Shown piece after piece: positions 9,117-45,282 of a DNA stretch of 52,527 bases. This DNA is from Dehalococcoidia bacterium (GTDB lineage: Bacteria > Chloroflexota > Dehalococcoidia > GIF9 > AB-539-J10). Below the pieces are notes generated by a model that was not told where the DNA came from, searched no databases, and saw only the letters and a program-made list of their open reading frames with translations. Within the stretch, counting starts at the first letter, position 1; the number at the start of each line of letters is the position of its first letter. The stretch covers positions 1 through 52,527 of the forward strand of contig DATKVL010000107.1 of the NCBI GenBank assembly GCA_035530115.1, written 5' to 3'. The position numbers were made by a program, and so were the translations under genes.

Positions 9117-9638
9117 ATGACCGACTCTGACCAAAAAGAGACACGGATAACTGCGAAGAAACGAGTCCGAATAGAGAAAGAGTTCGAGGCCATGGGCAGA
9201 GGCATCTGGACCTACGCCGACATAGCGGCAGAGATCGGCGTATCAGAGGTCACTGTCAGGAGAGACATGAAGCACCCCTACGCCTTCAAGTACGTCGAGA
9301 AACTTCAAGAGAGAAGAGGATCTCTCGTAGACCAACTCATAAAAAGACAGATTAATCAAATAGAGAGCGGGGGCGTAACCCCCCACCTCCAGTTGCTCTA
9401 TAGAGGGAAGATGATCGATGGTCTTCTACCCAAGAACGTCATCCAGAAAGTTAGTGGGGAACTTCAACAAAAGATAGAGGTGGAGGGGGTTGAACTCAAA
9501 GGACTTGACGAAGACGCAGTCGGAGCAATCGTTCAGAACTTCATGGACGACGAGGCGAGAAGACTACGTCAACCAGAGCCAGATGCTATACCGGGCGCTA
9601 AAGAACGCCCTGAAGATGGAGTGGATCCCACGGGATAA
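9117..9638 (+). CDS. terS: Terminase small subunit (HTH)
   Basis: Position immediately upstream of and overlapping TerL; YADIAAEIGVSEVTVRRDMK helix-turn-helix. Confidence 0.6.
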   Translation: MTDSDQKETRITAKKRVRIEKEFEAMGRGIWTYADIAAEIGVSEVTVRRDMKHPYAFKYVEKLQERRGSLVDQLIKRQINQIESGGVTPHLQLLYRGKMIDGLLPKNVIQKVSGELQQKIEVEGVELKGLDEDAVGAIVQNFMDDEARRLRQPEPDAIPGAKERPEDGVDPTG

Positions 9639-10911
9639 AGGCAAGAGGCCGTCCGCCAAACAACTGCAGTTCCTTCTGTTGCCTGACTTCGAGGCCTTCT
9701 ACGGAGGCGCAGCTGGCGGCGGCAAATCGGATGCCCTCCTGATGGGTGCCGTCATGTTCTGCCACATACCCAGCTACGCCGCCATCCTATTTAGGAAGAC
9801 CCTGCGGGACCACCAGCTCCCTGAGGGGTTGATTCCACGGGCTCATGAATGGTGGGCGAATAAGGCGAAGTGGAGGGGAGACACCAATACCTACACCTTC
9901 CCCTCAAGCGCCACAGTCACATTCGGCTACATGGATTCACCCCTAGACCACCTCCGATACCAGAGTAGCGCCTACCAGTACGTAGCGTTCGATGAGGTGC
10001 CTCAGCACCGTGAGTTTCAGGTCCGGTACCTGTTCAGCCGGATCAGGCGAACAGAGAAGCTGAAGGACTACAACGTCCCCCTAAGGATGAGGAACGCTGG
10101 CAACCCTGACGGCCCTTACGTGCAATGGGTGAAACGACGCTACGTCGACTACAAGACCGCAGTCGCCCCCTTCATACCCGCGAAGATAGAGGATAATCCC
10201 GGACTCGACAAGGAGACCTATATTAAAAGCCTCATGTACCTCGAACCCGTCACCCGGGCCCGCCTAATGGACGGCAACTGGGACATAAAGGACGTAGGAA
10301 GAATGTTCAGAAGAAGCTGGTTCACAATCCAACTATCCATTCCCTCCGGCTGCCGAGCAATCAGATACTGGGATAAAGCCGCCTCAGAGGAGAGACCGGG
10401 CACGGATCCCTCCTACACCGCCGGTGTCCTCATGGCTATGGACGACGAAGGACGCTTCTACATCCTCGACATCCGGCACACCCGAGGCACACCCAAGACT
10501 ATCGAGGATCTCATAAAGCAGACAGCCGCCCTCGACAGAATGCGGGTTGAAAACGGCGAACTCAGCAGCATCCGAATATACCTGGAGCAGGAGCCCGGCA
10601 GCAGCGGTGTCGATGTCATCGACCACTACACCCGCAAAGTCCTAGTGGGACACGCCTTCTACCCGGACAAGGTGACGGGCTCCAAAGCCGACAGAGCCAC
10701 GCCCCTAAGCAGCACAGCCCAAGCCGGTAACGTCTACCTCGTCCCCGGGATGTGGGATGTAGAAGGCTACCTAGACGAGATGGAGTCATTCCCCGAGGCG
10801 GAGCACAAGGACAGGGCCGACGCCAGCAGCGGGGCTCACAGGATGCTCGCTAAGGGCCGCCGACCGATAGGGGGTTACAGCGTCTACCGTCCCAAGGAGA
10901 TAATGAGATGA
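9583..10911 (+). CDS. terL: Terminase large subunit
   Basis: Walker A YGGAAGGGKSDAL, Walker B-like YVAFDE, C-terminal nuclease-like region. Start uncertain: ATG 9583 or 9616, or TTG 9490 (track) after gaggtggaggggg. Confidence 0.88.
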   Translation: MLYRALKNALKMEWIPRDKGKRPSAKQLQFLLLPDFEAFYGGAAGGGKSDALLMGAVMFCHIPSYAAILFRKTLRDHQLPEGLIPRAHEWWANKAKWRGDTNTYTFPSSATVTFGYMDSPLDHLRYQSSAYQYVAFDEVPQHREFQVRYLFSRIRRTEKLKDYNVPLRMRNAGNPDGPYVQWVKRRYVDYKTAVAPFIPAKIEDNPGLDKETYIKSLMYLEPVTRARLMDGNWDIKDVGRMFRRSWFTIQLSIPSGCRAIRYWDKAASEERPGTDPSYTAGVLMAMDDEGRFYILDIRHTRGTPKTIEDLIKQTAALDRMRVENGELSSIRIYLEQEPGSSGVDVIDHYTRKVLVGHAFYPDKVTGSKADRATPLSSTAQAGNVYLVPGMWDVEGYLDEMESFPEAEHKDRADASSGAHRMLAKGRRPIGGYSVYRPKEIMR

Positions 10912-11087: not shown

Positions 11088-11089
11088 AA

Positions 11090-11254
11090 TTGCAGTTCTG
11101 TAAATGCGGGTCCATTATATCCATCGAAGCCTGCCCATCCTGCCCGCCCCAGATATGGACGTGTCCCCAATGCGGAGAGCAGACGCTGGTCGAAGCCGCC
11201 CCCGAGGATCAGTACGCGGACGTGATTAGAAGGTTCAAGGAGAGACAAAGATGA
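11090..11254 (+). CDS. Small Zn-ribbon protein (54 aa)
   Basis: TTG 11090 after gagga; LQFCKCGSIISIEACPSCPPQIWTCPQCGE; the track ORF 11012..11254 start overlaps the previous gene. Confidence 0.5.
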   Translation: MQFCKCGSIISIEACPSCPPQIWTCPQCGEQTLVEAAPEDQYADVIRRFKERQR

Positions 11255-18082: not shown

Positions 18083-19273
18083 TTGAGTAAATCCGAAATC
18101 GAATCCCCCATAGAAGTGTCAATCGACACCAAAGGCATGGAAGACAGACTCAACAACAACTTCAACCTCAAGTTCAAGAAGCTAGAGGAGATGCTCACCG
18201 CACAAGAGAAGACAGAGGCTCTCACCGAGAGCGTAGGCGACAACAAGTTCGTCGACTACGACTGGCGTGAAGGCATCGACGAGATGCTCAGAAGCTTCAG
18301 GCCGAGCGACAACATCCGCACCGACGCCTGGCAGGACAGGCGTCCGATCGAGAAGTTAGCCATCCGCACCTACGACGAGAAAACCAAGAAAACCAGCTAT
18401 AAACTATCCGAGAAGCTAGTCGAAACCATCGGAACCATCAGCACGACTACCTGCTGCATCCCCGAGGTGTGGGCCGACAAGATCGAGCGCGACCACGTCT
18501 ACCCGGGCAGCGTCTTCCTAGACGCATGGTTCGTAAGATGGTACGACGACATCAAGGGCAAGCCAGGCGACAAGATCAACATCTGCCGCGTGGCCCCCGC
18601 AGTATGTACCGACCTAACATGCGAGGAACCCGCAACCACGGCACCCGTGGTTACGTGCCCCGCCATCGAACTGCACCACGACGTCTGCGCCACCGCTATC
18701 TGCAAGAACACCATGGAGACCGTGCAGTACGGTCTCGTAGACGCCATCACGGAAGGCCTCGGCAGCTGCCTGCAGGTCTGTGTGGACAACTACTTCTTCG
18801 ACGTCGCCCTCGCCGGCGACAACGCCGGAACACTGACATGCACCGGCCCCATGGCCGGCTCCATAATCGTCGAGGCGATGGGAAGCATGATGGCTGGAAC
18901 TTACAAGCCAGTCAAGATTATCATGCACCCCGTCGTCTGGGCTTCGCTGATGCAGGACACCAACTTCAGCTATGCTAACAGGTTCGGCGCCAGAGACGCC
19001 ATTCTAGGCGGGCGGCTTGAAGAGGCTTACGGCCTCGAAATCAACGTGGCCCCGAAGGGCACGCTGCTCATCGGCGGCGGAACCTACCGGACACTGCTAC
19101 TGGCCAACGGCGCCCTCGCCGGTGCCCTGAAGCACGGGATAACGATCGAGACGGAGTACTCGCCACGCCTCCAGAAGAAGTGGATAATTGCCGACATCAA
19201 GTATGGCGGCACGCGTCTGCACCCTGACGGGATCTTCTGGATCGAGACGGTCGAGTCCCCGTTCTCCTGCTAG
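18083..19273 (+). CDS. Major capsid protein, HK97 fold
   Basis: 396 aa after scaffold-like gene; ggtgat SD 8 nt before TTG start; C-terminal LLLANGALAGALKHGITIETEYSPRLQKKWIIADIKYGG is typical of HK97-family MCPs. Confidence 0.8.
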   Translation: MSKSEIESPIEVSIDTKGMEDRLNNNFNLKFKKLEEMLTAQEKTEALTESVGDNKFVDYDWREGIDEMLRSFRPSDNIRTDAWQDRRPIEKLAIRTYDEKTKKTSYKLSEKLVETIGTISTTTCCIPEVWADKIERDHVYPGSVFLDAWFVRWYDDIKGKPGDKINICRVAPAVCTDLTCEEPATTAPVVTCPAIELHHDVCATAICKNTMETVQYGLVDAITEGLGSCLQVCVDNYFFDVALAGDNAGTLTCTGPMAGSIIVEAMGSMMAGTYKPVKIIMHPVVWASLMQDTNFSYANRFGARDAILGGRLEEAYGLEINVAPKGTLLIGGGTYRTLLLANGALAGALKHGITIETEYSPRLQKKWIIADIKYGGTRLHPDGIFWIETVESPFSC

Positions 19274-19345: not shown

Positions 19346-21412
19346 ATGAAATTGGAGAAGAGAGAGATCAAAGTAAGTTCAACAAAGAGATTCAAAGGCA
19401 GCGCCCCACCAAACTTCTATTCAAGAGAGTATTTTCTTGAGGGGGAGGGTAGCAACTATGGCAGGGAGCCGTTCGCGCCCTACGACGAGTCGTACCTAAT
19501 AAGAAACCGTGAGCTCGTCAAAAGGATACTATCCGTCGCACCTAGACTAAACACGGTTCTGGTTCTCGGGGCAGCCCGGGGCTACCTGGTCCGTGCCTTC
19601 CGTGAGCGCGGCGTCAACGCCGACGGAGTAGACTTGAGCCGGTGGGCCGTGGAGAACTGCGCCGAAGGCGTCGAGCCCTACATGTATTGGGGCGACGTAT
19701 GCGACCTCAGTAAATGGGTTGACGGGGGGGTTGACCTCGTCGTGGCCCTCGACGTGCTAGAGCATATTCGAGCCCCGGATGATGAAATACCGTATGATGA
19801 ATCGCTCTATAAGGCGCTAGATGAGGCGGTCCGAGTTGGCTGTATGGTGCTGCTTGACGTCCCCATAATGCCCCATGACGATGAGCCCGACCAGAGCCAC
19901 GGCACCGATAAGAGCCACGTAAGCTGCTACTCCAAACACTGGTGGATAAGACAGTTCATGGAGAGGGGTATGGAGCCCTTCGGTCAGCCCAACGAGTACG
20001 CCTATCCAGAGGAGAAGGAGGACTCGCCGTGGCCGGATAAACATGACCACGGCTACACCGTCTGGTTCCGCCGCCCCATCCCCACCCCGACGGCTGAGAA
20101 CATAACGTTAACGCCGGTCGCTAAGGGAAGTCAGGACTTCAAGATTCTGTGGTGGGCTAACGCATTCTTCTGTGGAACCGGGTACGGGGTAGGCACCGCC
20201 GGCGTAGTCTTTGACCTATTAGAACACTATAACGTGCGGAACCTCGCCTTCTACGGGCTTGAAGGAAAAGCAATGGGGTTCAGCACCCCGATAGGCGGTA
20301 CCCCCGTAAAGGGTCGACGCCCACTCATAACGTACCCTAAACGGTTCGACCAGTTCGGGTCGGACGCCGCGAAACTCATCTGCGACCGATGGAAGCCCGA
20401 CATCATGGTCACACTTTTCGACATCTGGATCGACGAGTCACTAAGCCCCATAGGTCCACCGGGTTGGCTGAGCAGCATGCACCCGTACTGGGTGCCGATC
20501 ATACCCGTGGATCATGACCCGATCCCGATGCCCACGTTGGTGCCCGCGAGGAGGGCGTATAAGCCGGTAGCTATGAGCAGGTTCGGGCAGAGGCAGCTTG
20601 AGGCTAACGGCGTCTCCTCAACATACATCCCGCACGGCGTTGAAACATCTGTATTCAAGCCTTCGGAGGACAAAGTGGTGAGTCGGCAGCACCTTCAGGA
20701 CATATCGGTTCCGCTCGTCGCCGGTAAAGCTGAGCCGTGGCCCGAGGACTGCTTCGTCATCGGCAAGGTCGCCGCCAACAAGGACACTAAACGTAAAGGC
20801 TTCGACAAGGACGCCCTGGCTCTAAACATATTCTTCGAGAACAACCCTGACGCTAAGAAGGATACCCGGGTCTTCATGCATACGCTCCCCCGCTTCCCCG
20901 GCGGCTTCAACATAGACCACTGGTACGACATCTGCGGTGTCGCACAATACGTGAAAGTCATAGACGAGTTCTTCTGGTGGCAGGGCTTGACCCCCGAGGA
21001 TATGGCGAAACTCTACGGCGGCTTCGATGTACTATTGAATGCCAGTCGCGGCGAGGGGTTCGGCATACCCATCATCGAAGCAGCCGCCTGCGGGGTGCCG
21101 ACGATAGGAACCAACTTCACGGCCATGCCCGAACTCATAAGAGGGCACGGCTGGCTGGTGGAGAAATATAACCGGGAACTCACGGCGGCGCTCAGTTTCA
21201 TCGCGTCTCCGAGCGAGTACGAGATGGCGCAGCACCTAGAGGATGCCTATAACAACCGCGACAAAACTGCACAATTCGGCGAGGCGTCGAGGAAATTCGC
21301 CCTGAACTACGACTGGCGTAAAGTAATTGTGCCTTTGTGGGTCAACCTCATAGAGGAGATACGGGAGGAGATGCGTCCAAGAACCCTCGCGGAGAGGAGG
21401 ATGATGACATGA
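19346..21412 (+). CDS. Fusion protein: class I SAM-methyltransferase (N-terminal) plus GT-B glycosyltransferase family 1/4-like (C-terminal)
   Basis: VLVLGAARGYL...GVDLS...VVALDVLEHI (MTase motifs I-III); C-terminal DVLLNASRGEGFGIPIIEAAACGVPTIGTNFTAMPELI (E-x7-E GT1 motif). Confidence 0.8.
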   Translation: MKLEKREIKVSSTKRFKGSAPPNFYSREYFLEGEGSNYGREPFAPYDESYLIRNRELVKRILSVAPRLNTVLVLGAARGYLVRAFRERGVNADGVDLSRWAVENCAEGVEPYMYWGDVCDLSKWVDGGVDLVVALDVLEHIRAPDDEIPYDESLYKALDEAVRVGCMVLLDVPIMPHDDEPDQSHGTDKSHVSCYSKHWWIRQFMERGMEPFGQPNEYAYPEEKEDSPWPDKHDHGYTVWFRRPIPTPTAENITLTPVAKGSQDFKILWWANAFFCGTGYGVGTAGVVFDLLEHYNVRNLAFYGLEGKAMGFSTPIGGTPVKGRRPLITYPKRFDQFGSDAAKLICDRWKPDIMVTLFDIWIDESLSPIGPPGWLSSMHPYWVPIIPVDHDPIPMPTLVPARRAYKPVAMSRFGQRQLEANGVSSTYIPHGVETSVFKPSEDKVVSRQHLQDISVPLVAGKAEPWPEDCFVIGKVAANKDTKRKGFDKDALALNIFFENNPDAKKDTRVFMHTLPRFPGGFNIDHWYDICGVAQYVKVIDEFFWWQGLTPEDMAKLYGGFDVLLNASRGEGFGIPIIEAAACGVPTIGTNFTAMPELIRGHGWLVEKYNRELTAALSFIASPSEYEMAQHLEDAYNNRDKTAQFGEASRKFALNYDWRKVIVPLWVNLIEEIREEMRPRTLAERRMMT

Positions 21413-22218
21413 GCGTCATGGTCGGCGTCCCAGTTAAGAACTCGGCGATTTGGCTCGCCCGCTTCCTTGAGCAGCTTGAGAAACTTGAGGACGTGTCCCG
21501 CGTCATATTCAGTTATGGCTTTAGCCGCGACCCTACGCTTAATATCTTACAACAGTATGAGCATGACACTAAGCACCCGACGGAGATAATCGCTGAGCCG
21601 TGGATGCCCGGACCCCTATCCGCCGCTGAGATCGCCCCCGTCTACAAGGACTTCCAGGAGATCATCGGCGAGGAGGGCTGGGAGGAGGAGACCCACTTCC
21701 TGCTTCTCGACGCCGACATAATGCATGCCCCCGCCGACCTGATCCAACGCCTGAAGAAACATGACAAAGACATCATCGCCCCCTTCGTGTGGGTTGACAG
21801 ATCGAACCCCCGCCAGTTCTTCGACATCCACTGCTTCCGAATATATGAACACCGGTTCCACCCCTTCTCGCCACCCGACCCCAACAACGGAGAGCCTTTC
21901 GAGCTAGACAGCGTCGGCAGCTGCTACCTCGCCAAATACGAGCCATTCAAGCTTGTCGACTATGAGAACCCGCACCCACATATACGGTTCTGCGAGAACG
22001 CGTTGAAGGAAGGCTACGAGGTCTGGGCTGACCCAGGCACTGAGGTGCTGCACCTCGACGATATGAAGCTCGGCATAAAGAAGACGGCAATCGAGACGTT
22101 GAGGGGGCAGCCCTTCAACCCACCACCATACATAATGAAGGACGGCACAGTCGTTGACGGCGAGCAGATCGCTAAGGACGCCATCGACGCCTTCGTCTGG
22201 GGGCGAGCACCGAAATGA
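21409..22218 (+). CDS. Glycosyltransferase, GT-A fold (DxD)
   Basis: ATGA overlap; MVGVPVKNSAIWL...HFLLLDADIMH...DSVGSCYL pattern. Confidence 0.6.
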   Translation: MSVMVGVPVKNSAIWLARFLEQLEKLEDVSRVIFSYGFSRDPTLNILQQYEHDTKHPTEIIAEPWMPGPLSAAEIAPVYKDFQEIIGEEGWEEETHFLLLDADIMHAPADLIQRLKKHDKDIIAPFVWVDRSNPRQFFDIHCFRIYEHRFHPFSPPDPNNGEPFELDSVGSCYLAKYEPFKLVDYENPHPHIRFCENALKEGYEVWADPGTEVLHLDDMKLGIKKTAIETLRGQPFNPPPYIMKDGTVVDGEQIAKDAIDAFVWGRAPK

Positions 22219-22379
22219 GGTTCTGTAAATATTGCAACCGGAACGTCCGACCTCATAAAGGCTGGAGCTGGATCGGCTTCATCTTCGGCTTCGGCATATT
22301 CTACCTAATATATTACCTATTGAAGACGCCGTGCTGCCCCATCTGCGGATCCAGACTAGGGCGGCTGAGGCGAGACTAA
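22215..22379 (+). CDS. Small Zn-ribbon/transmembrane protein (54 aa)
   Basis: ATGA overlap; MRFCKYCNRNV...WIGFIFGFGIFYLIYYLL...CCPICGS. Confidence 0.45.
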   Translation: MRFCKYCNRNVRPHKGWSWIGFIFGFGIFYLIYYLLKTPCCPICGSRLGRLRRD

Positions 22380-22380
22380 A

Positions 22381-23193
22381 ATGGCTGTTGAGACCCCGCA
22401 GGTTCACGGCGTGGAGAACCCGGTCTACTCGGTGGTTATCCCCATCCGAGACCGGTGCGGCCACGCCCTCCGTCTCTGCCTGAAAAGCGTGGAACTGCAG
22501 ACGCTTCAACCCCTGGAGCTAATCATAGTCGACTACGGCTCCACCGAGGAAAACCATGAGAAACTGATGAGACTACTCCCAGACTGCACCGTCTACCACT
22601 GTAAGACAGATGCACCCTGGAGCCTCTCCGTCGCCCGAAACATAGGGCTCCGACGGGCCACGGCGAGGACGTCGTGTTCCCTGGATGCCGACCTGATAAT
22701 GGAGCCCCGCGTCCTCGAAGTCGCCCACCGGATACACACCGCCAAACCACGCACCTATATGAGCACCAATGTGACAATCCTAGACTTTGCGGCCGTAGAC
22801 CCCGCCACCCTCACGCTTCCAGAAGACTACGACAAACTAGCTTTAGCACGCTGGACCTTTGGGTCAGAGGGATGGGGCGGCTTCGTGAGCGCCTCCACCG
22901 ATTGGTGGCACGAGTGCCAGGGCTTCGACGAGCGCATGACGGTCTGGGGCTCTGAGGACGTGGATATGTGGAAACGTGCCGCCAGGGCGGGAATGAGTCG
23001 CTACCGGCTCTACGTCGCCGGTGAAGAGGGAACCACCGTATATCACGTGCATCACCCGAGCATACCGGTGAACGCAATTAGGGCTAAAGATAAAAAGGTC
23101 ATAGCGGCCATAAAGCAGAACTCACGGTGGGCTCGAGTCACTAAGGGTGTGAGGCGTAACGACGAAGCCTGGGGGCTGTGGCGTGAAGATTAG
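22381..23193 (+). CDS. Glycosyltransferase family 2
   Basis: YSVVIPIRDR, LIIVDYGST, SLDADLIM (DxD), GFDERMTVWGSEDVDMWKR are canonical GT2 motifs. Confidence 0.85.
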   Translation: MAVETPQVHGVENPVYSVVIPIRDRCGHALRLCLKSVELQTLQPLELIIVDYGSTEENHEKLMRLLPDCTVYHCKTDAPWSLSVARNIGLRRATARTSCSLDADLIMEPRVLEVAHRIHTAKPRTYMSTNVTILDFAAVDPATLTLPEDYDKLALARWTFGSEGWGGFVSASTDWWHECQGFDERMTVWGSEDVDMWKRAARAGMSRYRLYVAGEEGTTVYHVHHPSIPVNAIRAKDKKVIAAIKQNSRWARVTKGVRRNDEAWGLWRED

Positions 23194-24031
23194 CGCCGCC
23201 CTCATCGCCTGGTGTGAGGCGGAGACTATAGACCTCTGCCTTAAATCCCTCAAAGGCCACGCCGACGAGGTCGTGATCTCCGACACAGGTAGCTTCGACG
23301 GAACCGTCGGCAAGGCTCGGGAGTGGCTTGACAGACTAGACTTGCCGGGCGAGGTTTTCAGCGTCACGATTCGAGGGCTCGGTCAGGCCCGCCGGGCAGC
23401 GATAGAGAAATGCACGCATCCGTGGATACAACTGGTAGACGCGAACATCGTCCTCACTGAGGCATTGAAGAAAGAGCTAAGACAGTCTGCTGAGGGAGGG
23501 CGTCCCGGTATGGTTCGCAGCTTAAACCTGATGGGCGACTATGAGCATTACTTCACATCCCTCCCGTTCCATGCTCATCATAACGTATTATTCCCCCGTG
23601 ACGCAATTCGGTGGCGAGATGACTTCGACTACCCTCTTCCAGTCTCGGGGCGAATCCTGCTGAATAATTGGGCAGTGAGCCTCAGCCGGGTAAGGCCGGC
23701 GTGGCGCTACTGGCTCCGAGGTGAGCCCTTCAAACCGGAGACGGGTCGCGAGTGGCGGACGCCGGAGAACCGGCAACTGCAATGGCAATTCTCGGGCGGC
23801 CATCACCCCTCACTCCTGGAGTACGTAGAGGCCGAGGAGGGACTGACCCTTGAGGACGTGAAGCGCATCGCCCCCACCTGGTTCCTAGACCTGTTGCAAC
23901 GCTATGCAGCACCATTAAAGGAGAGTCACCGGCAAGGGCTTCCCGAGGTTATTAGGGAAGAACAGAGAAACCCACGGTACAAGTTGGTCTATGAGGGAGG
24001 TGAAATCGTTGGGCGATGGCCCGAACTCTAA
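23183..24031 (+). CDS. Glycosyltransferase family 2-like
   Basis: EVVISDTGSFDGT resembles the DTGSTDxT motif; GTG start overlaps previous gene. Confidence 0.6.
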   Translation: MKISAALIAWCEAETIDLCLKSLKGHADEVVISDTGSFDGTVGKAREWLDRLDLPGEVFSVTIRGLGQARRAAIEKCTHPWIQLVDANIVLTEALKKELRQSAEGGRPGMVRSLNLMGDYEHYFTSLPFHAHHNVLFPRDAIRWRDDFDYPLPVSGRILLNNWAVSLSRVRPAWRYWLRGEPFKPETGREWRTPENRQLQWQFSGGHHPSLLEYVEAEEGLTLEDVKRIAPTWFLDLLQRYAAPLKESHRQGLPEVIREEQRNPRYKLVYEGGEIVGRWPEL

Positions 24032-24770
24032 TGTAGCTGAATCATCAGGAATCCAATCGTCTAAACCCAAAGTCTCGTTAATAGTGACGAGTCATAACCA
24101 GATTATGTATAGCCAGATGATGTATTCTTCTCTGAAAAAGTACACTCGATACCCCTATGAACTTGTCTGGGTTGATTGTATAAGCACCGATGGAACGAGG
24201 GAGTGGCTTAATTCGGAGCTACACAAGGAAACCGTGAAAGTCTTCGTGCCAAAAATTGGGATAGGCGAGGCGATGAACATCGGCTTCAGTAAATGTAGCA
24301 AAGAAAGCGAATACATTGGTGACTTGGACAATGATTTGATTCTAACAGAAGGTTGGCTTACGAGATTGATCCAGCATATGGAGATGGACAAGAAAATAGC
24401 AGTGTGCCAGGCACTATGGAGTCTCCGTGGAAAAGATCCGGAGAAAATACATGAATTTGCACGGACTATAAAGAATAATAACGGCTTGAAGAAAATGTGG
24501 TGGGTTAATGGGAGCCACACCCTCTTCAGAAGAAGTGCTCTTGAACAAGTTGGACTTTGGAACCCTATTTACTGGATGGGTGAAGATAAGGATATTGGGA
24601 TACGGTTATCAAACGCTGGCTTTAAGAATGTAATTGCTTTGAATACATGTGTTTATCACTTTCAGGGGAGAACTACTAGCGTGATAGAAAAAACTGATCC
24701 AGAATGGAACAAACACAGGATAGAGTCAAAACGTTTATTAGATAAACTGTATGGTTCACGTAAACGGTAG
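23991..24770 (+). CDS. Glycosyltransferase family 2
   Basis: VSLIVTSHNQ, LVWVDCISTDGT, DLDNDLIL (DxD); alternative starts GTG 24000 or TTG 24009; composition turns AT-rich here. Confidence 0.75.
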   Translation: MREVKSLGDGPNSNVAESSGIQSSKPKVSLIVTSHNQIMYSQMMYSSLKKYTRYPYELVWVDCISTDGTREWLNSELHKETVKVFVPKIGIGEAMNIGFSKCSKESEYIGDLDNDLILTEGWLTRLIQHMEMDKKIAVCQALWSLRGKDPEKIHEFARTIKNNNGLKKMWWVNGSHTLFRRSALEQVGLWNPIYWMGEDKDIGIRLSNAGFKNVIALNTCVYHFQGRTTSVIEKTDPEWNKHRIESKRLLDKLYGSRKR

Positions 24771-24787: not shown

Positions 24788-25882
24788 TTGAATGTAGACT
24801 TGCTAACATATGAAAACGTTCTATCTAGATCCAAGATGAAAAGTGACATAAATAAACACCTGACTCGCCTCTATAAGCTAACTGCCAATATCCCTTTTAA
24901 AGAAAAGGTTGTAGTAGAACTTGGGGTGAGAAGTGGAGAGTCTACAACAGCATTGTTAGCTGCTGTAAACGATACAGGTGGGCGATTAATCAGTGTGGAT
25001 ATAGCAGAATGCAACAAGACTAGAAGACGATTGAAAGGAGAACCCAATTGGTCTTTTATCCATGGAAACGATATAGAGATCATCAAAGAATGGGACAAGC
25101 CAATAGACCACCTATTCATTGATACGAGCCATACCTTTAAACACACTCTTGCAGAACTCCGTGAATGGGGGGACTGGGTTAAAGAAAATGGAATAATGTC
25201 CCTTCACGACACAACTGCACAGAACTATCCTGATCTTATGAAAGCAATAGAAAAATATCTTGAAGAGAATCCAACATTTTTATTTACTAATTATCCCGAG
25301 TGTTTCGGTCTTGGTGTTATACAAAAACAGTCTAATGCTTTACCCAAGGAGTATTGGGAAGCTTGTAGATGGTATTTGAATGATGCTTACGACTTAGATA
25401 TAGATGATAAAACATCTTTTTATCCACAGAGATATTACGAAATTGCTGACGTATTAAAATCATTGGAGCCAAACCCCCAAAAAATATTGGAGGTTGGTTG
25501 CTTAACTGGTTACGGCATCAACATTTTGGAAAGTAGAGGCTTTGAGATCTATGGAATAGAAATTTATGGAAGGGCAATAAGAAAAAGGGTGTCTGATCAC
25601 ATCATTAAGGCTTCAACGGAGACCTTGCCCTTCAGGAACAAAAGTTTTGATGCCGTGATTAGTCTTGGAGTCCTGGAGCATATACACAGATCCGGCTTGG
25701 ATAGGGTCCTCCTTGAAATGGACAGGGTCGGTAAAGCAAACATCCATAGAATACACATGAAAGGTTTTGGTCGGTTTTGGAATCGTTCTTGGCACATAAC
25801 GGTCGAAAACATAGGTTTCTGGAAAACCTTGCTTGAAAAACTTGGGATTGGGGAGCATTGGCACTTGTATCATGAACCTTAA
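24788..25882 (+). CDS. Tandem double SAM-dependent methyltransferase
   Basis: Domain 1: VVVELGVRSGESTTAL...FIDTSHT (Methyltransf_24/O-MTase-like). Domain 2: ILEVGCLTGYGINIL...FDAVISLGVLEHI (Methyltransf_11-like). Confidence 0.75.
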   Translation: MNVDLLTYENVLSRSKMKSDINKHLTRLYKLTANIPFKEKVVVELGVRSGESTTALLAAVNDTGGRLISVDIAECNKTRRRLKGEPNWSFIHGNDIEIIKEWDKPIDHLFIDTSHTFKHTLAELREWGDWVKENGIMSLHDTTAQNYPDLMKAIEKYLEENPTFLFTNYPECFGLGVIQKQSNALPKEYWEACRWYLNDAYDLDIDDKTSFYPQRYYEIADVLKSLEPNPQKILEVGCLTGYGINILESRGFEIYGIEIYGRAIRKRVSDHIIKASTETLPFRNKSFDAVISLGVLEHIHRSGLDRVLLEMDRVGKANIHRIHMKGFGRFWNRSWHITVENIGFWKTLLEKLGIGEHWHLYHEP

Positions 25883-25905: not shown

Positions 25906-26859
25906 ATGAAATGTCTCGTAACCGGGTCCGTTGGCTTCATTGGAAGCCATCTAGTTAACTACCTGAAATCCAAGGGGCACTGGGTAAGAGGGGCCGACAT
26001 AAAAAGTAGAAGCGATTGCTACCTAGAAACCAAGGAAGACGAGTTTCTACAGATCGATTTGAGGCTCTTCGAGAACGCGGTTTCCGCCCTAACCGACGTT
26101 GACTGGGTCTTCAACTTGGCGGCCGACATGGGGGGCATAGGCTACATCACCGAGTACAACGCCCCGATAATGCATAACAATTCCCTTATCAACCTCAACA
26201 TGCTTAAGGCATCCCGCCTCGCCGATGTGAACCGCTACTTCTTCAGCAGCTCGGCGTGTACCTACAACCGCGACCTCCAAGCGGAACCTCATTCCCCGCC
26301 CCTTAAGGAGAGCAGTGTATTACCGGCCCACCCAGATTCGGCCTACGGGTGGGAAAAGCTGTACGCCGAATTGCTTTGCAAGAGCTACGAACATGACTAC
26401 GGGCTTCCCGTTCGGATTGCCCGATTCCACAATATTTACGGCACCCACGGGACTTACACGGGAGGGCAGGAGAAGTTCCCGGCCGCGGTCTGCAGAAAGG
26501 TGGCCGAGGCTCCTGATGGGGGCTCGATCATTCTCTGGGGTGACGGCAAACAGAGGCGGAGCTACCTCTGGGTGGACGACTGCTGCGAGGGTTTCTACAG
26601 GCTGACTCAAAGCGGTTTCAGTGATCCGGTTAACATCGGCACGAGTCGGAGCGTCGGCGTGGACGAGCTGGCGCACGTGGTTATGGGGATAGCTGGGAAG
26701 AACCTGACGATTGAACACGATCTCTCGAAACCACAGGGTGTCCGAGGAAGGAACGCAGACTTAACCTTGCTTCGCAAGGTTTTGGATTGGGAGCCAAAAG
26801 TCAGTCTTGAAGATGGTATATCTAAACTCTATCACTGGATTGAAGAACGGGTGAATTAA
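25906..26859 (+). CDS. NAD-dependent nucleotide-sugar epimerase, GDP-mannose 3,5-epimerase-like
   Basis: VTGSVGFIGSHL (GxxGxxG); VFNLAADMGGIGYI, FFSSSACTY, SAYGWEKL (YxxxK), RIARFHNIYG, EKFPAAVCRK, WGDGKQRRS and PQGVRGRNAD parallel the plant/bacterial GME sequence as I recall it. Confidence 0.88.
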   Translation: MKCLVTGSVGFIGSHLVNYLKSKGHWVRGADIKSRSDCYLETKEDEFLQIDLRLFENAVSALTDVDWVFNLAADMGGIGYITEYNAPIMHNNSLINLNMLKASRLADVNRYFFSSSACTYNRDLQAEPHSPPLKESSVLPAHPDSAYGWEKLYAELLCKSYEHDYGLPVRIARFHNIYGTHGTYTGGQEKFPAAVCRKVAEAPDGGSIILWGDGKQRRSYLWVDDCCEGFYRLTQSGFSDPVNIGTSRSVGVDELAHVVMGIAGKNLTIEHDLSKPQGVRGRNADLTLLRKVLDWEPKVSLEDGISKLYHWIEERVN

Positions 26860-26875: not shown

Positions 26876-27880
26876 ATGTTATCAGGAAACCCTAAAATGA
26901 AAATCCTGTTTCTAAGACGCCGATGCGAGGGCCTCGTAGGCGCACCAGGAAAGTATCATGAGTTCGAGCAAGCGGTCGGTAAACTAGCAGAATGCCAATG
27001 GGCGGGAGAAGGGTGGCCCCTGCATAAGCCGAACGAGTTCATGAATGAAACCGTGAAACGGGTGATGCCGGACGCCGACTGGGTGTTCGATAGGGACGAC
27101 GGATTCAACCCGCCGAGCAACCGACACTATAAAGTCGGCGCCTTCCTCTCAGATCTACACGGAAAATGGAGTAAAAACATTCAAACCCCACGCGGTTTTG
27201 TGAACTTGATAAACACCGCTGGATACGACGCCGTGTTCCTGAAGTATCTTCACATCTACGGAACCTCGGCGCCTCCAGACCTGTTTCTTAAGAGCCTCAA
27301 TCCCCGCGTATATTTCCTTCCTTGGAGCGTGGACCCAGATAAATTCAAGCCGCTTGAGAAGACGATAGATGCAGCGTTCCTCGGAAGGAAGGGACCCGTT
27401 TACCCGCTTAGAAACAGGTTGTGGAGGGAACTACCCCAATTCTGCGGGGAACGGAGGCTACGGCTGCTTATGAGGGAGCCCCCTAAGCTGGAAAGCTTCA
27501 AGAGAAAAATAAGCGATTACAAGGGGGATAGTCGCTACATTGTCGGTGAAGACTACGAGAAAACGCTAGGGCAGACGAGGATGCTTCTCTTCGGCTCCAG
27601 CAGATACCGTTATGCTATACAGAAATACACGGAGGGCGCAAGCACGGGATGCTTGGTTATGGCTGACGAGCCTAGCGACGCGGCGGCCCTCGGACTCGTA
27701 GATGGCGAAACCTATGTGACCATCACGGCGACCAACTGGAAGCACAAACTGGATTATTACCTGGGTCACCCCTCTGAGGCTGAACGTATAGCGGGCAACG
27801 GCAGACGCTTAATCTTGGAGCGACACACTCATAGGCATCGAGCTGAAGAGTTTCTGAGGAGTTTAGAAGATGGGCTTTAG
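26876..27880 (+). CDS. Glycosyltransferase, CgeB/Glyco_trans_1_2-like
   Basis: C-terminal KYTEGASTGCLVMADEP...GETYVTI...ERIAGNGRRLILERHTHRHRAEEFL resembles the GT1_2 domain; alternative start ATG 26897. Confidence 0.55.
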   Translation: MLSGNPKMKILFLRRRCEGLVGAPGKYHEFEQAVGKLAECQWAGEGWPLHKPNEFMNETVKRVMPDADWVFDRDDGFNPPSNRHYKVGAFLSDLHGKWSKNIQTPRGFVNLINTAGYDAVFLKYLHIYGTSAPPDLFLKSLNPRVYFLPWSVDPDKFKPLEKTIDAAFLGRKGPVYPLRNRLWRELPQFCGERRLRLLMREPPKLESFKRKISDYKGDSRYIVGEDYEKTLGQTRMLLFGSSRYRYAIQKYTEGASTGCLVMADEPSDAAALGLVDGETYVTITATNWKHKLDYYLGHPSEAERIAGNGRRLILERHTHRHRAEEFLRSLEDGL

Positions 27881-27930: not shown

Positions 27931-28602
27931 ATGGCAGCGATTAGATATTGTTCGACCCTAGATGTTAGCATCCTTGGGCAAGTTGAATGGCAGCAACTTG
28001 GCTTCGGATCCATCACCTACTTCAATGACTGGGTGCATGGCACCCTCATCTACAAAGCCATGGACTTCATAGACAACTATTGCCGCCACAACTTTCAGCT
28101 CAACGCGGGAACCATCACAATGGATGGCACGGGAAAGGAGACCCAACACATCCCACCCCACGCCAAAACGACGGGGTTAATGCCACCCCCCTCCTCGGCT
28201 CCATTGACTTCAACGCTTCCCGTCAACCTAATGCCAATCCCTCTCATGGAAATAACGGAAATCAAAATTGAGGGAGTAACACAAACACTAACGAACTTCC
28301 AAACCTATACCGCCCACATCACCCATAGAGACAACGTTTTCGCCCAAGGACGGCAGAACGTCGCGGTCATCGCCACATTCGGCTACGGAACCATTCCACA
28401 CGACATCCAATACGTTTGTGCAGAGTTATGCTCAAACATCATGGCAGACATGATTAGAAGGCGGACACTCGGCGACCTCATAACACCAGTCCTAGAAGGC
28501 GGCGGAAACCTGAACATGCTTTTCAGGTCACCGAAGGTACTCACAGAAAACGAAAAATCGATCTTAAACAAATATCGTTATCACGCGATGGAGATAACCT
28601 GA
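27931..28602 (+). CDS. Head-tail connector (gp6-like adaptor), putative
   Basis: N-terminus YCSTLDVSILGQ...LIYKAMDFIDNYCRHNF fits the gp6-like Y-x-t-x-x-d-l...A-x-x-x-I-x-x-Y-x-x-r-x-F pattern. Confidence 0.5.
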   Translation: MAAIRYCSTLDVSILGQVEWQQLGFGSITYFNDWVHGTLIYKAMDFIDNYCRHNFQLNAGTITMDGTGKETQHIPPHAKTTGLMPPPSSAPLTSTLPVNLMPIPLMEITEIKIEGVTQTLTNFQTYTAHITHRDNVFAQGRQNVAVIATFGYGTIPHDIQYVCAELCSNIMADMIRRRTLGDLITPVLEGGGNLNMLFRSPKVLTENEKSILNKYRYHAMEIT

Positions 28603-29113: not shown

Positions 29114-29875
29114 ATGTATAAACAAGGGTTTAAACACTCTGAAGAAACCAAGAGAAAAATGTCCGAGAGTCACCTGAAAAACCCTACACGTTATTGGCTG
29201 GATAAGAAACTATCCGAAGAACATAAAATAAAAATAAGTAATGCCCATAAAGGAAAAACACTATCTAAAGAACACAAACAAAAAATTAGCAGGGTTTTAA
29301 AAGGTATTATTACATGGAATAAAGGGCAAAAAGGAATATACTCAGAGGATCATAGAAGAAAAATAAGTACATCCTCGAAGGGAAACAAACATAATAAGGA
29401 CCGCAAGGCTTCTGAAGATACAAAACGAAGAATGTCGGATGCTCAAAAGAAAATAACTCATTCGGGTAGATTTAAAAAGGGAAACATGCACCGCTATTAT
29501 GAAAAAACATTTTCAGAAGAACATAAAAATAAAATTCGAGAAGCTAGACTAAAACAGGTTTTTCCCCAAAAGGATACTTCTATTGAAGTCGCTATGCAAA
29601 ACGAATTAACCCAACGAGGAATTATTTACGAGAAGCATCTTCCGGTTTGCGGGGTGTGCCAGCCTGACATAGTTTTTCCAGAGAGAAAGATCATTATTCA
29701 ATGCGATGGTGATTACTGGCATAACTTGCCTGAGATGGTCGAGAAGGATAGAAGGCAGGACAAGGCTCTTAGAGCGAATGGGTGGCAGGTTCTTCGTTTC
29801 TGGGAGCACGAAATTAAAGATAATGTTCAAAGATGTGTAGATGAAATAACGTTCCAGGTAAACCATATTAGTTAA
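29114..29875 (+). CDS. Homing endonuclease: six NUMOD3-like repeats plus a Vsr/DUF559-type PD-(D/E)xK nuclease domain
   Basis: Repeats such as GFKHSEETKRKMSESH, KLSEEHKIKISNAHKG and TLSKEHKQKISRVLKG; C-terminal QPDIVFPERKIIIQCDGDYWH...ANGWQVLRFWEHEI. Confidence 0.8.
   Translation: MYKQGFKHSEETKRKMSESHLKNPTRYWLDKKLSEEHKIKISNAHKGKTLSKEHKQKISRVLKGIITWNKGQKGIYSEDHRRKISTSSKGNKHNKDRKASEDTKRRMSDAQKKITHSGRFKKGNMHRYYEKTFSEEHKNKIREARLKQVFPQKDTSIEVAMQNELTQRGIIYEKHLPVCGVCQPDIVFPERKIIIQCDGDYWHNLPEMVEKDRRQDKALRANGWQVLRFWEHEIKDNVQRCVDEITFQVNHIS
29843..29875 (+). repeat. Direct repeat copy 2 (gaaataacgttccaggtaaaccatattagttaa)
   Basis: See 29064..29096; five of the six differences are silent wobble changes and one gives V->I. 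Confidence 0.85.
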
Positions 29876-29891: not shown

Positions 29892-30173
29892 ATGGAGAAA
29901 GTAAGAATCGGAGAAGGTATCCGAAGATACACGTTTGACGAGTTGAAGGAGGAGATGACTGAGGAGGACGCCCTGTTCGCAGGGACCGCCGCCTTCGTCA
30001 TATCTATGAACTGGATCGACTACCAGCGGCTTAAGAAGCATCTGAGCATGATCCCGGAGTTCAGGGTAGTGTACAAGACCTTTTCGACCACCCATCTTCG
30101 AATCGTCAAAGTAGAGCAGTACGACGAATATCTTTTATGGCGGAAAAATAAGGAGAATAAAGATGGAATATAA
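29892..30173 (+). CDS. Hypothetical structural-module protein
   Basis: ORF track 93 aa; GC-rich except the last ~40 nt, which are AT-rich like the downstream HNH gene. Confidence 0.5.
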   Translation: MEKVRIGEGIRRYTFDELKEEMTEEDALFAGTAAFVISMNWIDYQRLKKHLSMIPEFRVVYKTFSTTHLRIVKVEQYDEYLLWRKNKENKDGI

Positions 30174-44658: not shown

Positions 44659-45282
44659 TTGAATGATCAGGTCCAGTTACAGGACACGCGTAGCCTGACG
44701 GAAAACCTCACTGAAATACTTCTTTCTCTTTCTAGACTAGAAAAAGAAAGTAGTAGTAATAGTAGTAATGTATTCGGCGAGGACGTGAATCGAGCGAAGT
44801 GCCTCATGGCTGCGTATCTCTTACCTGGGGGCGGATGCCTGCAATACATTCTTGAGCGGAAGGCATTCACGATCCCCATAGTGGCCTCCTCCACAGGGGT
44901 TGAAATCAACCTCATCTACAGTGTCGTGGGGAGACTTGTCAGAGGCGGCGTGGCTTATGAACGTTACAGGGTTGGGGGCCAAGGTAGACCTGCCAATCTG
45001 TATGCATTGTACGATGCCTCTGATAGTCAGGTGGTGGAGGCGGCCAACCTCTACAGGGACGCAAACACTGAACACGTTAAGCGTCTTGACGACTATCTGG
45101 TAGATCATGACTACAAAGAGGTAGCGGAGGAAGCTGTGAAGTACCTCAATGAGGAGGGGCAATTAGGTTCGTGGACTCTGGTTAACCTGTTAGCGGTTAA
45201 GCGGATATACGACGATGACGCGTTGCTTGAGGTGCGGCGCATCGTGGCTTCTATGGGATACACCATTGTGGAGGGAGCCTGA
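44659..45282 (+). CDS. Winged-helix protein upstream of MCM (possible origin-binding or regulatory protein)
   Basis: ORF track 207 aa; IYSVVGRLVRGGVAYERYRVGGQGRPANLYAL looks like a wHTH wing. Confidence 0.55.
   Translation: MNDQVQLQDTRSLTENLTEILLSLSRLEKESSSNSSNVFGEDVNRAKCLMAAYLLPGGGCLQYILERKAFTIPIVASSTGVEINLIYSVVGRLVRGGVAYERYRVGGQGRPANLYALYDASDSQVVEAANLYRDANTEHVKRLDDYLVDHDYKEVAEEAVKYLNEEGQLGSWTLVNLLAVKRIYDDDALLEVRRIVASMGYTIVEGA

What the first reader, a model, noticed from the sequence alone, without database searches (positions are those of the whole stretch)
25906..26859. Virus-encoded GDP-mannose 3,5-epimerase-like enzyme (L-sugar nucleotide synthesis)
The 317-aa SDR has GxxGxxG and YxxxK motifs. 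It also shares a long series of blocks with GDP-mannose 3,5-epimerase as I remember it: VFNLAADMGGIGYI, FFSSSACTY, LKES, YGWEKL, RIARFHNIYG, GGQEKFPAAVCRK, WGDGKQRRS, DPVNIGT and PQGVRGRNAD. GME makes GDP-L-galactose and GDP-L-gulose. A viral copy next to glycosyltransferases implies L-hexoses in the glycan product, which is rare for viruses.
Basis: partly seen in the sequence, partly recalled or inferred. Interest (0 to 1): 0.65.

Follow-up and report, generated by a model that had tools for sequence, protein, structure and literature searches.

The report
Archaeal virus GDP-mannose 3,5-epimerase gene
A tailed virus that probably infects Bathyarchaeia archaea carries a real GDP-mannose 3,5-epimerase gene, the enzyme that makes activated L-galactose and L-gulose, inside a swappable sugar-tailoring module next to its capsid gene; the enzyme family is well known and similar genes already sit in cyanophage genomes, so this is a new member of a known kind, not a new kind of thing.

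Summary

- **Family:** the protein matches solved GDP-mannose 3,5-epimerases (GME/GM35E) at E 1e-92 (312 bits), against 110 bits for the next family. It is 46% identical to Arabidopsis GME. All eight defining residues are conserved, including the Cys/Lys acid-base pair and the Arg that separate GME from GDP-fucose synthase. It falls in the GME clade with 100% bootstrap. The model superposes on GME crystal structures at TM 0.95. dN/dS is about 0.1.
- **Virus:** the window is a complete 52.5-kb tailed-virus genome with an MCM helicase and a psiM2-like terminase. The nearest cellular MCM and GME are both from Bathyarchaeota.
- **Context:** the gene lies in an 8.5-kb cassette of about seven glycosyltransferase and three methyltransferase domains, between the capsid and head-tail adaptor genes. 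A GT2 + GME + two-methyltransferase module recurs in relatives. Sister viruses carry other sugar-tailoring genes in the same slot.
- **Not new:** GME-type genes occur in about 37 cyanophage records, and one (S-SCSM1 ORF123) is published as GME.
- **Untested:** activity, which product is used, and the glycan's acceptor.

The parts
25906..26859 (+). GDP-mannose 3,5-epimerase (GM35E/GME) family gene, 317 aa. Key residues: NAD motif G7/G10/G13; triad S116/Y147/K151; acid C118; base K190; R282 (lowers the Cys pKa); R218 (diphosphate contact); N176.
23991..24770 (+). GT2 glycosyltransferase, the conserved partner of the epimerase. Orthologues at 51-57% identity lie directly upstream of GME in L005, L006, L016 and L107. 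It is the candidate transferase for the GME product (inferred). GC is low (0.418).
24788..25882 (+). Fused double SAM-methyltransferase (Methyltransf_24/CmcI-like N-terminal half plus Methyltransf_11 C-terminal half). Its two halves match two separate genes downstream of GME in L016 (63% and 58%). GC 0.394. Candidate sugar O-methyltransferases (inferred).
26876..27880 (+). Glyco_trans_1_2-like glycosyltransferase, the last gene of the cassette. Homologous genes close the cassette in sister viruses L019 (52% identity) and L020 (same Pfam family).
19346..24031 (+). Conserved 5' part of the glycosylation cassette: a methyltransferase-GT4 fusion (19346-21412), an Anp1/GT2-like GT (21337-22218), a GT2 (22381-23193) and a GT2 (23183-24031). 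The first three are shared at 57-80% identity with sister viruses L017, L019 and L020; L018, cut off inside the first gene, shows only that one (74%).
18083..19273 (+). Major capsid protein, immediately upstream of the cassette. Weak PHROG major-head match; 72-78% identical in sister viruses.
27931..28602 (+). Head-tail adaptor, immediately downstream of the cassette.
45282..47537 (+). MCM replicative helicase (OB, P-loop and lid domains). It marks the genome as an archaeal virus. The nearest named cellular relatives are Bathyarchaeota (42-44%).
9490..10911 (+). Large terminase. The best match among deposited phage records is Methanobacterium virus psiM2 (40.8%).

Best explanation
[quoted passage not shown] By analogy with characterised plant and bacterial GM35Es, the steps would be as follows. 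Tightly bound NAD+ with Tyr147/Lys151/Ser116 oxidises C4 of host-supplied GDP-D-mannose. Cys118 and Lys190 then deprotonate and reprotonate C5 and C3, with Arg282 lowering the Cys pKa. [quoted passage not shown] The adjacent conserved GT2 pulls one of these products into a glycan, and the two co-inherited methyltransferase domains probably O-methylate it. The module is one interchangeable 'tailoring' unit at the 3' end of a capsid-adjacent, all-soluble glycosylation cassette. Its most likely acceptor is a virion protein. Shown here: family membership, residue conservation, fold, purifying selection, viral context, module conservation and slot variability. Inferred: catalytic activity, which product is used, methylation of the sugar, and the acceptor.
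For: Sequence: phmmer against PDB gives GME 8sg0/2c59 at E 2.8e-92 to 8.5e-91 (312-308 bits), with the next family (GDP-fucose synthase) at 110 bits. Identity to AtGME is 46.2% over 312 aa. All eight residues named as defining in PMC8787198 are conserved: S143/C145/Y174/K178/N203/K217/R243/R306 map to S116/C118/Y147/K151/N176/K190/R218/R282. The C/K/R triplet separates the family from Fcl (C/H/K), Gmd (E/F/L) and GalE (T/G/Y), and it is invariant in 118 relatives. Tree and fold: the GME clade has 100% bootstrap. The AF2 model has pLDDT 93.9, and the top 14 PDB fold hits are all GME at TM 0.93-0.95, rmsd 1.6-1.9 A. Selection: dN/dS is 0.09-0.13 against L107. Virus: terminase, capsid, adaptor, tape measure and MCM genes are present. 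The identical 52,527-bp contig was assembled in several samples with different start points. Origin: the nearest cellular GME is on a Bathyarchaeota chromosome (64%), followed by Thermoproteota (52%); the nearest named MCMs are Bathyarchaeota. Module: GT2 orthologues abut GME in L005, L006, L016 and L107, and both methyltransferase halves are found in L016. Slot: sister viruses keep the cassette position and its 5' genes but swap the 3' genes. Acceptor: no cassette protein has a transmembrane helix and no flippase or polymerase was seen. Genes are tightly packed and co-oriented with the structural genes.
Against: No biochemical data exist for this or any viral GME. Substrate nucleotide specificity (GDP) was not tested residue by residue beyond R218 and N176. 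The GM35E equilibrium favours GDP-mannose and includes GDP-D-altrose, so an L-sugar in the final glycan is not guaranteed. The partner GT2 has no solved homologue or specific family, so its donor is unknown. The GT2 and methyltransferase genes have a very different GC (0.39-0.42) from the epimerase (0.54), so in this genome the 'module' is compositionally mosaic. The acceptor is unknown: the capsid protein has only one N-x-S/T sequon and no Ser/Thr-rich C-terminal tail. Archaeal N-glycan assembly on dolichol phosphate also uses soluble or peripheral GTs, so a host-surface target is not excluded. Host assignment rests on gene similarity only; there is no CRISPR spacer evidence.
Confidence: 0.8

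Rival explanations
1. The protein is a true GME-clade enzyme, but the cassette remodels the host cell surface (S-layer N-glycan or a lipid-linked glycan) during infection, for example to block superinfection, as serotype-converting phages do and as has been proposed for cyanophage 'LPS' genes. In this reading it does not decorate the virion.
For: Cyanophage GME, epimerase and GT genes are interpreted in the literature as host cell-wall modification genes. The nearest cellular GME (Bathyarchaeota L014/L027) sits in a cell-envelope glycan cluster with GT4s and UDP-GlcNAc 2-epimerases. The GT2 has a weak GtrB-like PHROG hit (E 1.3e-4). The capsid protein has few sequons.
Against: The cassette always sits between the capsid and head-tail adaptor genes, co-oriented with them, in the window and in four sister viruses. 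There are no membrane-spanning proteins, flippase or polyprenyl-phosphate transferase. No integrase was seen among the ORFs scanned, so a lysogenic-conversion lifestyle has no support.
Confidence: 0.25
2. The enzyme is a GME-family paralogue with a shifted specificity. It might be a C5-only epimerase that makes GDP-L-gulose alone, as proposed for BlmG-type enzymes and Thermoplasma L-gulose lipids, or it might act on another GDP-sugar such as a GDP-heptose or a GDP-6-deoxyhexose.
For: The window group forms its own 100%-supported subclade, 46% identical to the characterised plant enzymes and distinct from the plant/cyanophage group. GME homologues are thought to supply L-gulose in bleomycin and archaeal lipid biosynthesis. 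No characterised enzyme lies within this subclade.
Against: Every catalytic and substrate-contact residue named for GM35E is conserved. The blocks around them are near-identical to AtGME. The bacterial MfGM35E, at a similar distance (about 50%) from plant enzymes, has canonical activity.
Confidence: 0.15
3. The protein is not GME but another extended SDR: UDP-glucose 4-epimerase, GDP-L-fucose synthase or a 4,6-dehydratase. These are the names databases mostly give its viral homologues.
For: Pfam hits are only the generic Epimerase and GDP_Man_Dehyd families. The best NCBIfam hit is GDP-L-fucose synthase. Cyanophage homologues are mostly labelled UDP-glucose 4-epimerase.
Against: All NCBIfam scores are far below cut-off: Fcl 132 against 500, GalE 81 against 262. 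The base is Lys, not the His of Fcl. R282 is Arg, not Lys. The Glu of dehydratases is absent. Identity to E. coli Fcl, GalE, Gmd and RfbB is 23-29%. The GME clade has 100% bootstrap. Fold hits to GME are 13 orders of magnitude better. The GME review notes that such misannotations are common.
Confidence: 0.02

Closest known systems
Plant GDP-mannose 3,5-epimerase (Arabidopsis GME, PDB 2C59/2C54; Myrciaria dubia 8SG0)
   Same: 46-47% identity over the whole catalytic core. The NAD motif, the Ser/Tyr/Lys triad, the Cys/Lys acid-base pair, and Arg306, Arg243 and Asn203 equivalents are all the same. The fold superposes at TM 0.95.
   Different: It lacks the plant N-terminal (~28 aa) and C-terminal (~35 aa) extensions. 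It has the canonical GxxGxxG where AtGME has GxxGxxA. It is not linked to ascorbate synthesis. It is encoded by a virus within a glycan cassette.
Methylacidiphilum fumariolicum MfGM35E, the only characterised prokaryotic GME (PMC6678494)
   Same: A short prokaryotic form with the GxxGxxG motif, the same catalytic residues and about 50% identity to plant enzymes. Its presumed role is supplying L-sugars for surface glycans.
   Different: It is bacterial and chromosomal.
Cyanophage GME-type genes (Synechococcus phage S-SCSM1 ORF123 / QFG06381.1; S-SSM7 gp253; P-TIM68, S-CAM9, S-PRM1 and others)
   Same: Virus-encoded, with the same C/K/R signature, and next to glycosyltransferases and methyltransferases. 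S-SCSM1 ORF123 is published as GME by annotation only.
   Different: Only 41-47% identical. They form a separate clade that groups with plant GMEs and never with the window group (0 of 200 bootstraps), so the acquisition was independent. They occur in large T4-like myoviruses of bacteria, in auxiliary-gene islands with GMD, GDP-fucose synthase and fucosyltransferases, and not next to the capsid gene.
Bathyarchaeota chromosomal GME (OY970072.1, locus L014/L027)
   Same: The closest cellular homologue (64%), with the same residues, in a glycan-biosynthesis neighbourhood.
   Different: It is not paired with the viral-type GT2 (no tblastn hit). It is cellular, not viral.
Mycobacteriophage virion glycosylation cassettes (Che8, Corndog, Myrna; Freeman et al. 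2023, cited from my own knowledge because the paper was not held)
   Same: Phage-encoded soluble glycosyltransferases, with methyltransferases in some, are encoded with the structural genes and decorate capsid and tail proteins. This is the closest functional analogy for the cassette as a whole.
   Different: Those are bacterial viruses with no nucleotide-sugar epimerase of the GME type, as far as I know. Virion glycosylation is demonstrated there but only inferred here.

Membership tests
GDP-mannose 3,5-epimerase (GM35E/GME, EC 5.1.3.18) | Extended-SDR fold with an N-terminal glycine-rich NAD+ motif (GxxGxxG/A) | tested here: met
   G7/G10/G13 are present. Pfam Epimerase E 2e-47. AF2 model pLDDT 93.9 with a Rossmann plus substrate domain.
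GDP-mannose 3,5-epimerase (GM35E/GME, EC 5.1.3.18) | Ser/Tyr/Lys triad for C4 oxidation and reduction (AtGME S143, Y174, K178) | tested here: met
   S116, Y147 and K151 align to these residues and are invariant in 118 relatives.
GDP-mannose 3,5-epimerase (GM35E/GME, EC 5.1.3.18) | Catalytic acid Cys (C145) paired with catalytic base Lys (K217; His in GDP-fucose synthase) | tested here: met
   C118 and K190. E. coli Fcl and the S-SCSM1 GDP-fucose synthase have His at this column; Gmd has Phe and GalE has Gly.
GDP-mannose 3,5-epimerase (GM35E/GME, EC 5.1.3.18) | Arg that acidifies the catalytic Cys (R306; Lys in GMER), the diphosphate-binding Arg (R243) and the conserved Asn (N203) | tested here: met
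   R282, R218 and N176. Criteria are from PMC8787198.
GDP-mannose 3,5-epimerase (GM35E/GME, EC 5.1.3.18) | Phylogenetic placement with characterised GMEs, excluding GMER, GalE, GMD and RmlB | tested here: met
   NJ tree with 200 bootstraps: GME clade 100%. Bit score 312 against 110 for the next family. Top 14 fold hits are all GME.
GDP-mannose 3,5-epimerase (GM35E/GME, EC 5.1.3.18) | [quoted passage not shown] | not testable with these tools
   This needs recombinant enzyme with HPLC or NMR. No viral or archaeal member has been characterised, as far as the searched literature shows.
GDP-L-fucose synthase (GMER/Fcl) | Cys acid with His base and a Lys that acidifies the Cys; NCBIfam NF047922 cut-off of 500 bits | tested here: not met
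   Lys and Arg occupy the two diagnostic columns. The score is 132 bits against a 500-bit cut-off. Identity to E. coli Fcl is 28.5%.
UDP-glucose 4-epimerase (GalE) | No additional acid-base pair; TIGR01179 cut-off of 262 bits | tested here: not met
   81 bits against 262. GalE has Thr/Gly/Tyr at the three diagnostic columns. Identity is 25.6%.
Virion glycosylation cassette (mycobacteriophage type) | Glycosyltransferase genes embedded in the structural gene block and co-oriented with it | tested here: met
   The cassette lies between the capsid (18083-19273) and adaptor (27931-28602) genes in the window and in sister viruses.
Virion glycosylation cassette (mycobacteriophage type) | Glycan demonstrably attached to capsid or tail proteins | not testable with these tools
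   This needs purified virions and glycoproteomics. The capsid sequence offers no decisive signal.

The most novel reading that the evidence does not exclude
Tailed viruses of Bathyarchaeia carry a capsid-adjacent glycosylation cassette with a conserved core and a hypervariable 3' slot for tailoring genes. In this virus the slot holds a mobile GT2 + GME + double-methyltransferase module, which would cap a virion-attached glycan with O-methylated L-galactose or L-gulose. If so, this would be the first L-hexose (non-6-deoxy) virion glycan. It would also be the first case of an archaeal virus making its own rare nucleotide sugar to diversify its surface, with module swapping between viruses as the route of diversification.
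Probability: 0.25. Interest if true: 0.65.

Novelty: new member of a known kind. Interest (0 to 1): 0.42.

Why it matters
[quoted passage not shown] Only plant enzymes and one bacterial enzyme have been characterised, and the GME review explicitly calls for archaeal homologues. A viral copy under purifying selection shows that some archaeal viruses invest in making a rare activated sugar themselves and do not rely only on host glycans. Its position in a swappable module next to the capsid gene gives a concrete, testable model for how virion or host-surface glycans diversify in an uncultured, globally abundant archaeal lineage. It also exposes an annotation gap. NCBIfam and Pfam have no GME-specific model, so dozens of viral GME-type genes are labelled 'UDP-glucose 4-epimerase' or 'NAD-dependent epimerase'. 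The Cys/Lys/Arg triplet used here corrects that quickly.

Tried and rejected
- **Biopython bootstrap:** timed out. I replaced it with numpy Kimura distances and NJ.
- **Support value:** the GME node had no value because of rooting. I recomputed it as rooted monophyly over 200 replicates.
- **dN/dS against L005, L006, L016 and L027:** synonymous sites were saturated, so there was no value. I solved this with the closer relative L107.
- **Literature:** the phrase search for 'GDP-mannose 3,5-epimerase' with phage failed on comma syntax or found nothing; the term 'GM35E' worked. Freeman et al. 2023 on mycobacteriophage virion glycosylation is not held, so that comparison rests on my own knowledge. 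The giant-virus glycan review has no mention of L-galactose or L-gulose. The Bathyarchaeia virus paper has no mention of an epimerase.
- **Partner proteins:** PDB and NCBIfam searches for the GT2 and the methyltransferase gave no specific function.
- **BFVD viral fold library:** only generic SDRs at 23% identity or less, which was uninformative.
- **Other scans:** the tRNA scan found none. N-x-S/T sequon density and C-terminal tails of structural proteins gave no clear glycosylation signal.
- **Rejected hypotheses:** GalE, GMER and dehydratase identity (residues, scores, tree); assembly chimera (the identical contig was assembled repeatedly); pseudogene (dN/dS about 0.1).
Full report
**1. Observation**

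The + strand ORF at 25906-26859 translates cleanly to 317 aa. A TTG one codon upstream (25903) is the mechanical ORF start. Public gene calls on identical contigs start at the ATG at 25906. The GxxGxxG motif (G7/G10/G13) and the YxxxK motif (Y147/K151) are present.

**2. Identity of the protein**

- Pfam sees only the generic Epimerase and GDP_Man_Dehyd families.
- NCBIfam has no GME model. Its best hit, GDP-L-fucose synthase, scores 132 bits against a 500-bit cut-off, and GalE scores 81 against 262.
- Against all PDB sequences, the five best hits are GDP-mannose 3,5-epimerases (8SG0, 2C59 and its mutants) at E 2.8e-92 to 5.8e-90 (312-305 bits). The next family, GDP-fucose synthase, scores 110 bits.

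The GM35E review (PMC8787198) names the features that separate GM35E from its neighbours:
- the Ser/Tyr/Lys triad (S143, Y174, K178);
- a catalytic Cys (C145);
- a catalytic Lys (K217; His in GDP-fucose synthase);
- an Arg that acidifies the Cys (R306; Lys in GDP-fucose synthase);
- the diphosphate-binding R243 and N203.

Mapping through the alignment gives S116, C118, Y147, K151, N176, K190, R218 and R282. All are conserved, at 46.2% overall identity.

I aligned the protein with E. coli Fcl, Gmd, GalE, RfbB and RfbD, taken from the annotated K-12 genome. The three diagnostic columns read as follows:

| Family | Diagnostic columns |
|---|---|
| Window protein, plant GMEs, 118 metagenomic relatives, cyanophage homologues | C/K/R |
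| Fcl | C/H/K |
| Gmd | E/F/L |
| GalE | T/G/Y |

A neighbour-joining tree puts the protein inside a GME clade with 100% support over 200 replicates. An AlphaFold2 model (pLDDT 93.9) has GME crystal structures as its 14 best PDB fold matches (TM 0.93-0.95, rmsd 1.6-1.9 A, E about 1e-40). The first non-GME hit is at E 6e-28. Against its closest relative (L107, 87% aa identity), dN/dS is 0.09-0.13, so the gene is under purifying selection.

**3. What carries it**

The window encodes these virus genes:
- a large terminase (9490-10911);
- a capsid protein (18083-19273);
- a head-tail adaptor (27931-28602);
- an HK97-gp10-like protein;
- a tape measure protein (32010-34373).

So it is a tailed virus. 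It also encodes a full MCM helicase (45282-47537; OB, P-loop and lid domains). The terminase's best match among 50,697 deposited phage records is Methanobacterium virus psiM2 (40.8%). Beyond a handful of viral relatives at 68-73%, the MCM's nearest named homologues are Bathyarchaeota MCMs at 42-44%. The nearest cellular GME is on a Bathyarchaeota chromosome (OY970072.1, 64%), followed by a Thermoproteota MAG (52%) and then bacteria at 50% or less. Two independent genes therefore point to an archaeal virus, probably of Bathyarchaeia. This host assignment is an inference; no spacer match was available.

The identical 52,527-bp contig has been assembled in several samples with different start coordinates. 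That fits a complete, circularly permuted genome and rules out a chimeric assembly. The published survey of Bathyarchaeia viruses mentions an MCM-encoding tailed virus and a glycosyltransferase in a spindle virus, but no epimerase.

**4. Neighbourhood**

An 8.5-kb co-oriented, tightly packed block lies between the capsid and adaptor genes:

| Coordinates | Gene |
|---|---|
| 19346-21412 | methyltransferase-GT4 fusion |
| 21337-22218 | Anp1/GT2-like GT |
| 22381-23193 | GT2 |
| 23183-24031 | GT2 |
| 23991-24770 | GT2 |
| 24788-25882 | fused double methyltransferase (Methyltransf_24/CmcI-like + Methyltransf_11) |
| 25906-26859 | the epimerase |
| 26876-27880 | Glyco_trans_1_2-like GT |

None of these proteins has a predicted transmembrane helix. 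No flippase, polymerase or polyprenyl-phosphate transferase was seen, and neither was any GDP-mannose synthesis gene. The substrate must therefore come from the host.

**5. A conserved module in a variable slot**

The GT2 at 23991-24770 has orthologues at 51-57% identity immediately upstream of the GME gene in four other contigs: L005, L006, L016 and L107. The two halves of the fused methyltransferase match two separate genes just downstream of GME in L016, at 63% and 58%. GT2 + GME + two methyltransferases therefore travel together. In the window the methyltransferases are fused and sit between the GT2 and GME.

Sister viruses with 72-78% identical capsids (L017-L020) keep the cassette in the same place. 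They share its first genes at 57-80% identity (L018, cut off inside the first gene, shows only that one). Their 3' parts differ:
- L019 has no GME. It carries extra GT2s, a polysaccharide pyruvyl transferase and a MurB-like protein.
- L020 has a formyltransferase, a methyltransferase, a GalE/UXS-like SDR (29% identical to the GME; best PDB hits are UDP-sugar enzymes) and a B12-radical-SAM enzyme.

The GT2 and methyltransferase genes have GC 0.39-0.42. The epimerase has 0.54 and the conserved cassette genes about 0.57, so the region is compositionally mosaic. I read this as a conserved core-glycan machinery plus an interchangeable tailoring slot, with the GME module as one of its variants. The architecture is shown; its functional meaning is inferred.

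**6. Mechanism**

By homology with AtGME and MfGM35E, the steps would be:
1. NAD+ with Tyr147/Lys151/Ser116 oxidises C4 of GDP-D-mannose.
2. Cys118 and Lys190 exchange protons at C5 and C3, with Arg282 lowering the Cys pKa.
3. C4 is reduced again.

[quoted passage not shown] The irreversible transferase step decides which species is consumed. The co-inherited GT2 is the obvious candidate for that step, and the methyltransferases are candidates for O-methylating the transferred sugar. None of this was or could be tested here.

The acceptor is unknown. Three features favour a virion protein, as in mycobacteriophage virion glycosylation (my own knowledge; the paper is not held):
- the fixed position inside the structural gene block;
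- the absence of membrane proteins;
- the lack of an integrase among the scanned ORFs.

The capsid sequence gives no decisive signal. Remodelling of the host surface remains a serious rival, and it is the usual reading of cyanophage glycan genes.

**7. Comparison with what is known**

The enzyme family is well characterised in plants and in one bacterium. It is not new to viruses. A tblastn of deposited phage genomes finds about 37 records, all cyanomyoviruses or marine single-cell virus contigs, at 41-47% identity, with a sharp drop to 31% after them. S-SSM7 gp253, S-SCSM1 ORF123 and two IMG/VR contigs share the C/K/R signature. S-SCSM1 ORF123 is annotated in GenBank as GDP-mannose-3',5'-epimerase, next to GMD, GDP-fucose synthase and fucosyltransferase genes. 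It is described as such in print, by annotation only (PMC9602691). Most others are labelled UDP-glucose 4-epimerase or generic epimerase, which is the misannotation the GME review warns about.

In the tree, the cyanophage/IMG-VR group clusters with plant GMEs (100%) and never with the window's group (0 of 200 replicates). The archaeal-virus copy is therefore an independent acquisition, most simply from the Bathyarchaeia host lineage. I found no report of a GME in an archaeal virus and no mention of L-galactose or L-gulose in the giant-virus glycan review. No viral GME has been assayed.

**8. Verdict**

The finding is real and the functional call is correct at the family level with high confidence. 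It is a new member of a known enzyme family, in a new type of carrier (an archaeal tailed virus), and embedded in a modular, capsid-adjacent glycosylation cassette. The claim that the glycan contains L-hexoses is plausible but unproven. Viral GME genes are uncommon but already on record. Interest is moderate. The enzyme itself is unsurprising to a specialist. The swappable tailoring slot next to the capsid gene in viruses of an uncultured archaeal class is the more interesting lead.

Noticed in passing
L005 10001-11800 (logan SRR22302370_4422, 90-kb contig): A NUMOD3/HNH endonuclease ORF (10993-11763) overlaps the 3' end of that contig's GME gene. The GME there has a 24-aa non-homologous tail, and an orphan second copy of the GME C-terminus (SVLNWEPEISLEEGMTKLYYWVKSRQ) lies just downstream. 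This looks like the footprint of a homing-endonuclease insertion into the epimerase gene.
   Followed up: partly
window 29114-29875 and 30163-30861: Two low-GC ORFs (0.37 and 0.33, against about 0.57 for the structural genes) interrupt the head-completion and tail genes. One is a NUMOD3 + Vsr/DUF559 endonuclease and the other a Cys-rich, very basic ORF. They are probably free-standing homing endonucleases.
   Followed up: partly
window 45282-47537: A full-length MCM helicase with an extra C-terminal DUF7218-like tail. The viral clade is at 68-73% identity (P0134-P0138, on 37-72-kb contigs) and Bathyarchaeota MCMs are at 42-44%.
   Followed up: partly
L020 16174-20691 and L019 17559-21065 (IMG/VR sister viruses): In place of the GME module, L020 carries a formyltransferase, a methyltransferase, a GalE/UXS-like SDR and a B12-binding radical-SAM enzyme. 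L019 carries extra GT2s, a polysaccharide pyruvyl transferase and a MurB-like FAD protein. The 3' end of the cassette is therefore a hypervariable sugar-tailoring slot.
   Followed up: partly
window 24788-25882 versus L016 10317-11417: The window's double methyltransferase is a fusion, in reversed order, of two genes that are separate and lie downstream of GME in L016 (63% and 58% identity). This is gene fusion plus rearrangement within the module.
   Followed up: yes
tree of GME homologues (window, L001, L002, L012, L013, PDB fragments): Plant GMEs group with the cyanophage/IMG-VR GME clade at 100% bootstrap, apart from the archaeal/metagenomic clade that contains the window protein. This may bear on the origin of plant GME, but it rests on a small NJ tree.
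   Followed up: no
whole window (1-52527): Contigs of exactly 52,527 bp carrying this gene at different offsets were assembled from several ENA and JGI samples. This indicates a complete, circularly permuted genome seen repeatedly. No tRNA genes were found.
   Followed up: partly
window 15479-17470: A 663-aa ORF upstream of the capsid gene has an unannotated N-terminal half and a long coiled-coil, Lys/Glu-rich C-terminal half (weak crescentin-rod hit). It is 82% conserved in sister viruses and may be a scaffold or protease-scaffold fusion.
   Followed up: no
window 32010-34373: The tape measure protein carries a proline-rich PAPTPP-type repeat stretch near its C-terminus.
   Followed up: no
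window 18083-19273: The capsid protein has a Cys- and Thr-rich central segment (for example TISTTTCCIPEVW and CTDLTCEEPATTAPVVTCPAIELHHDVCATAICKNT) and ends in Cys. It has only one N-x-S/T sequon. Whether the Thr-rich segment is an O-glycosylation site is unknown.
   Followed up: no
window 178-891: A DUF5131 (phage Gp37/Gp68-like) protein lies at the left end. The left arm (2-8 kb) and right end (48-52 kb) have GC 0.40-0.45, against 0.51-0.58 for most of the 8-48 kb stretch between them.
   Followed up: no
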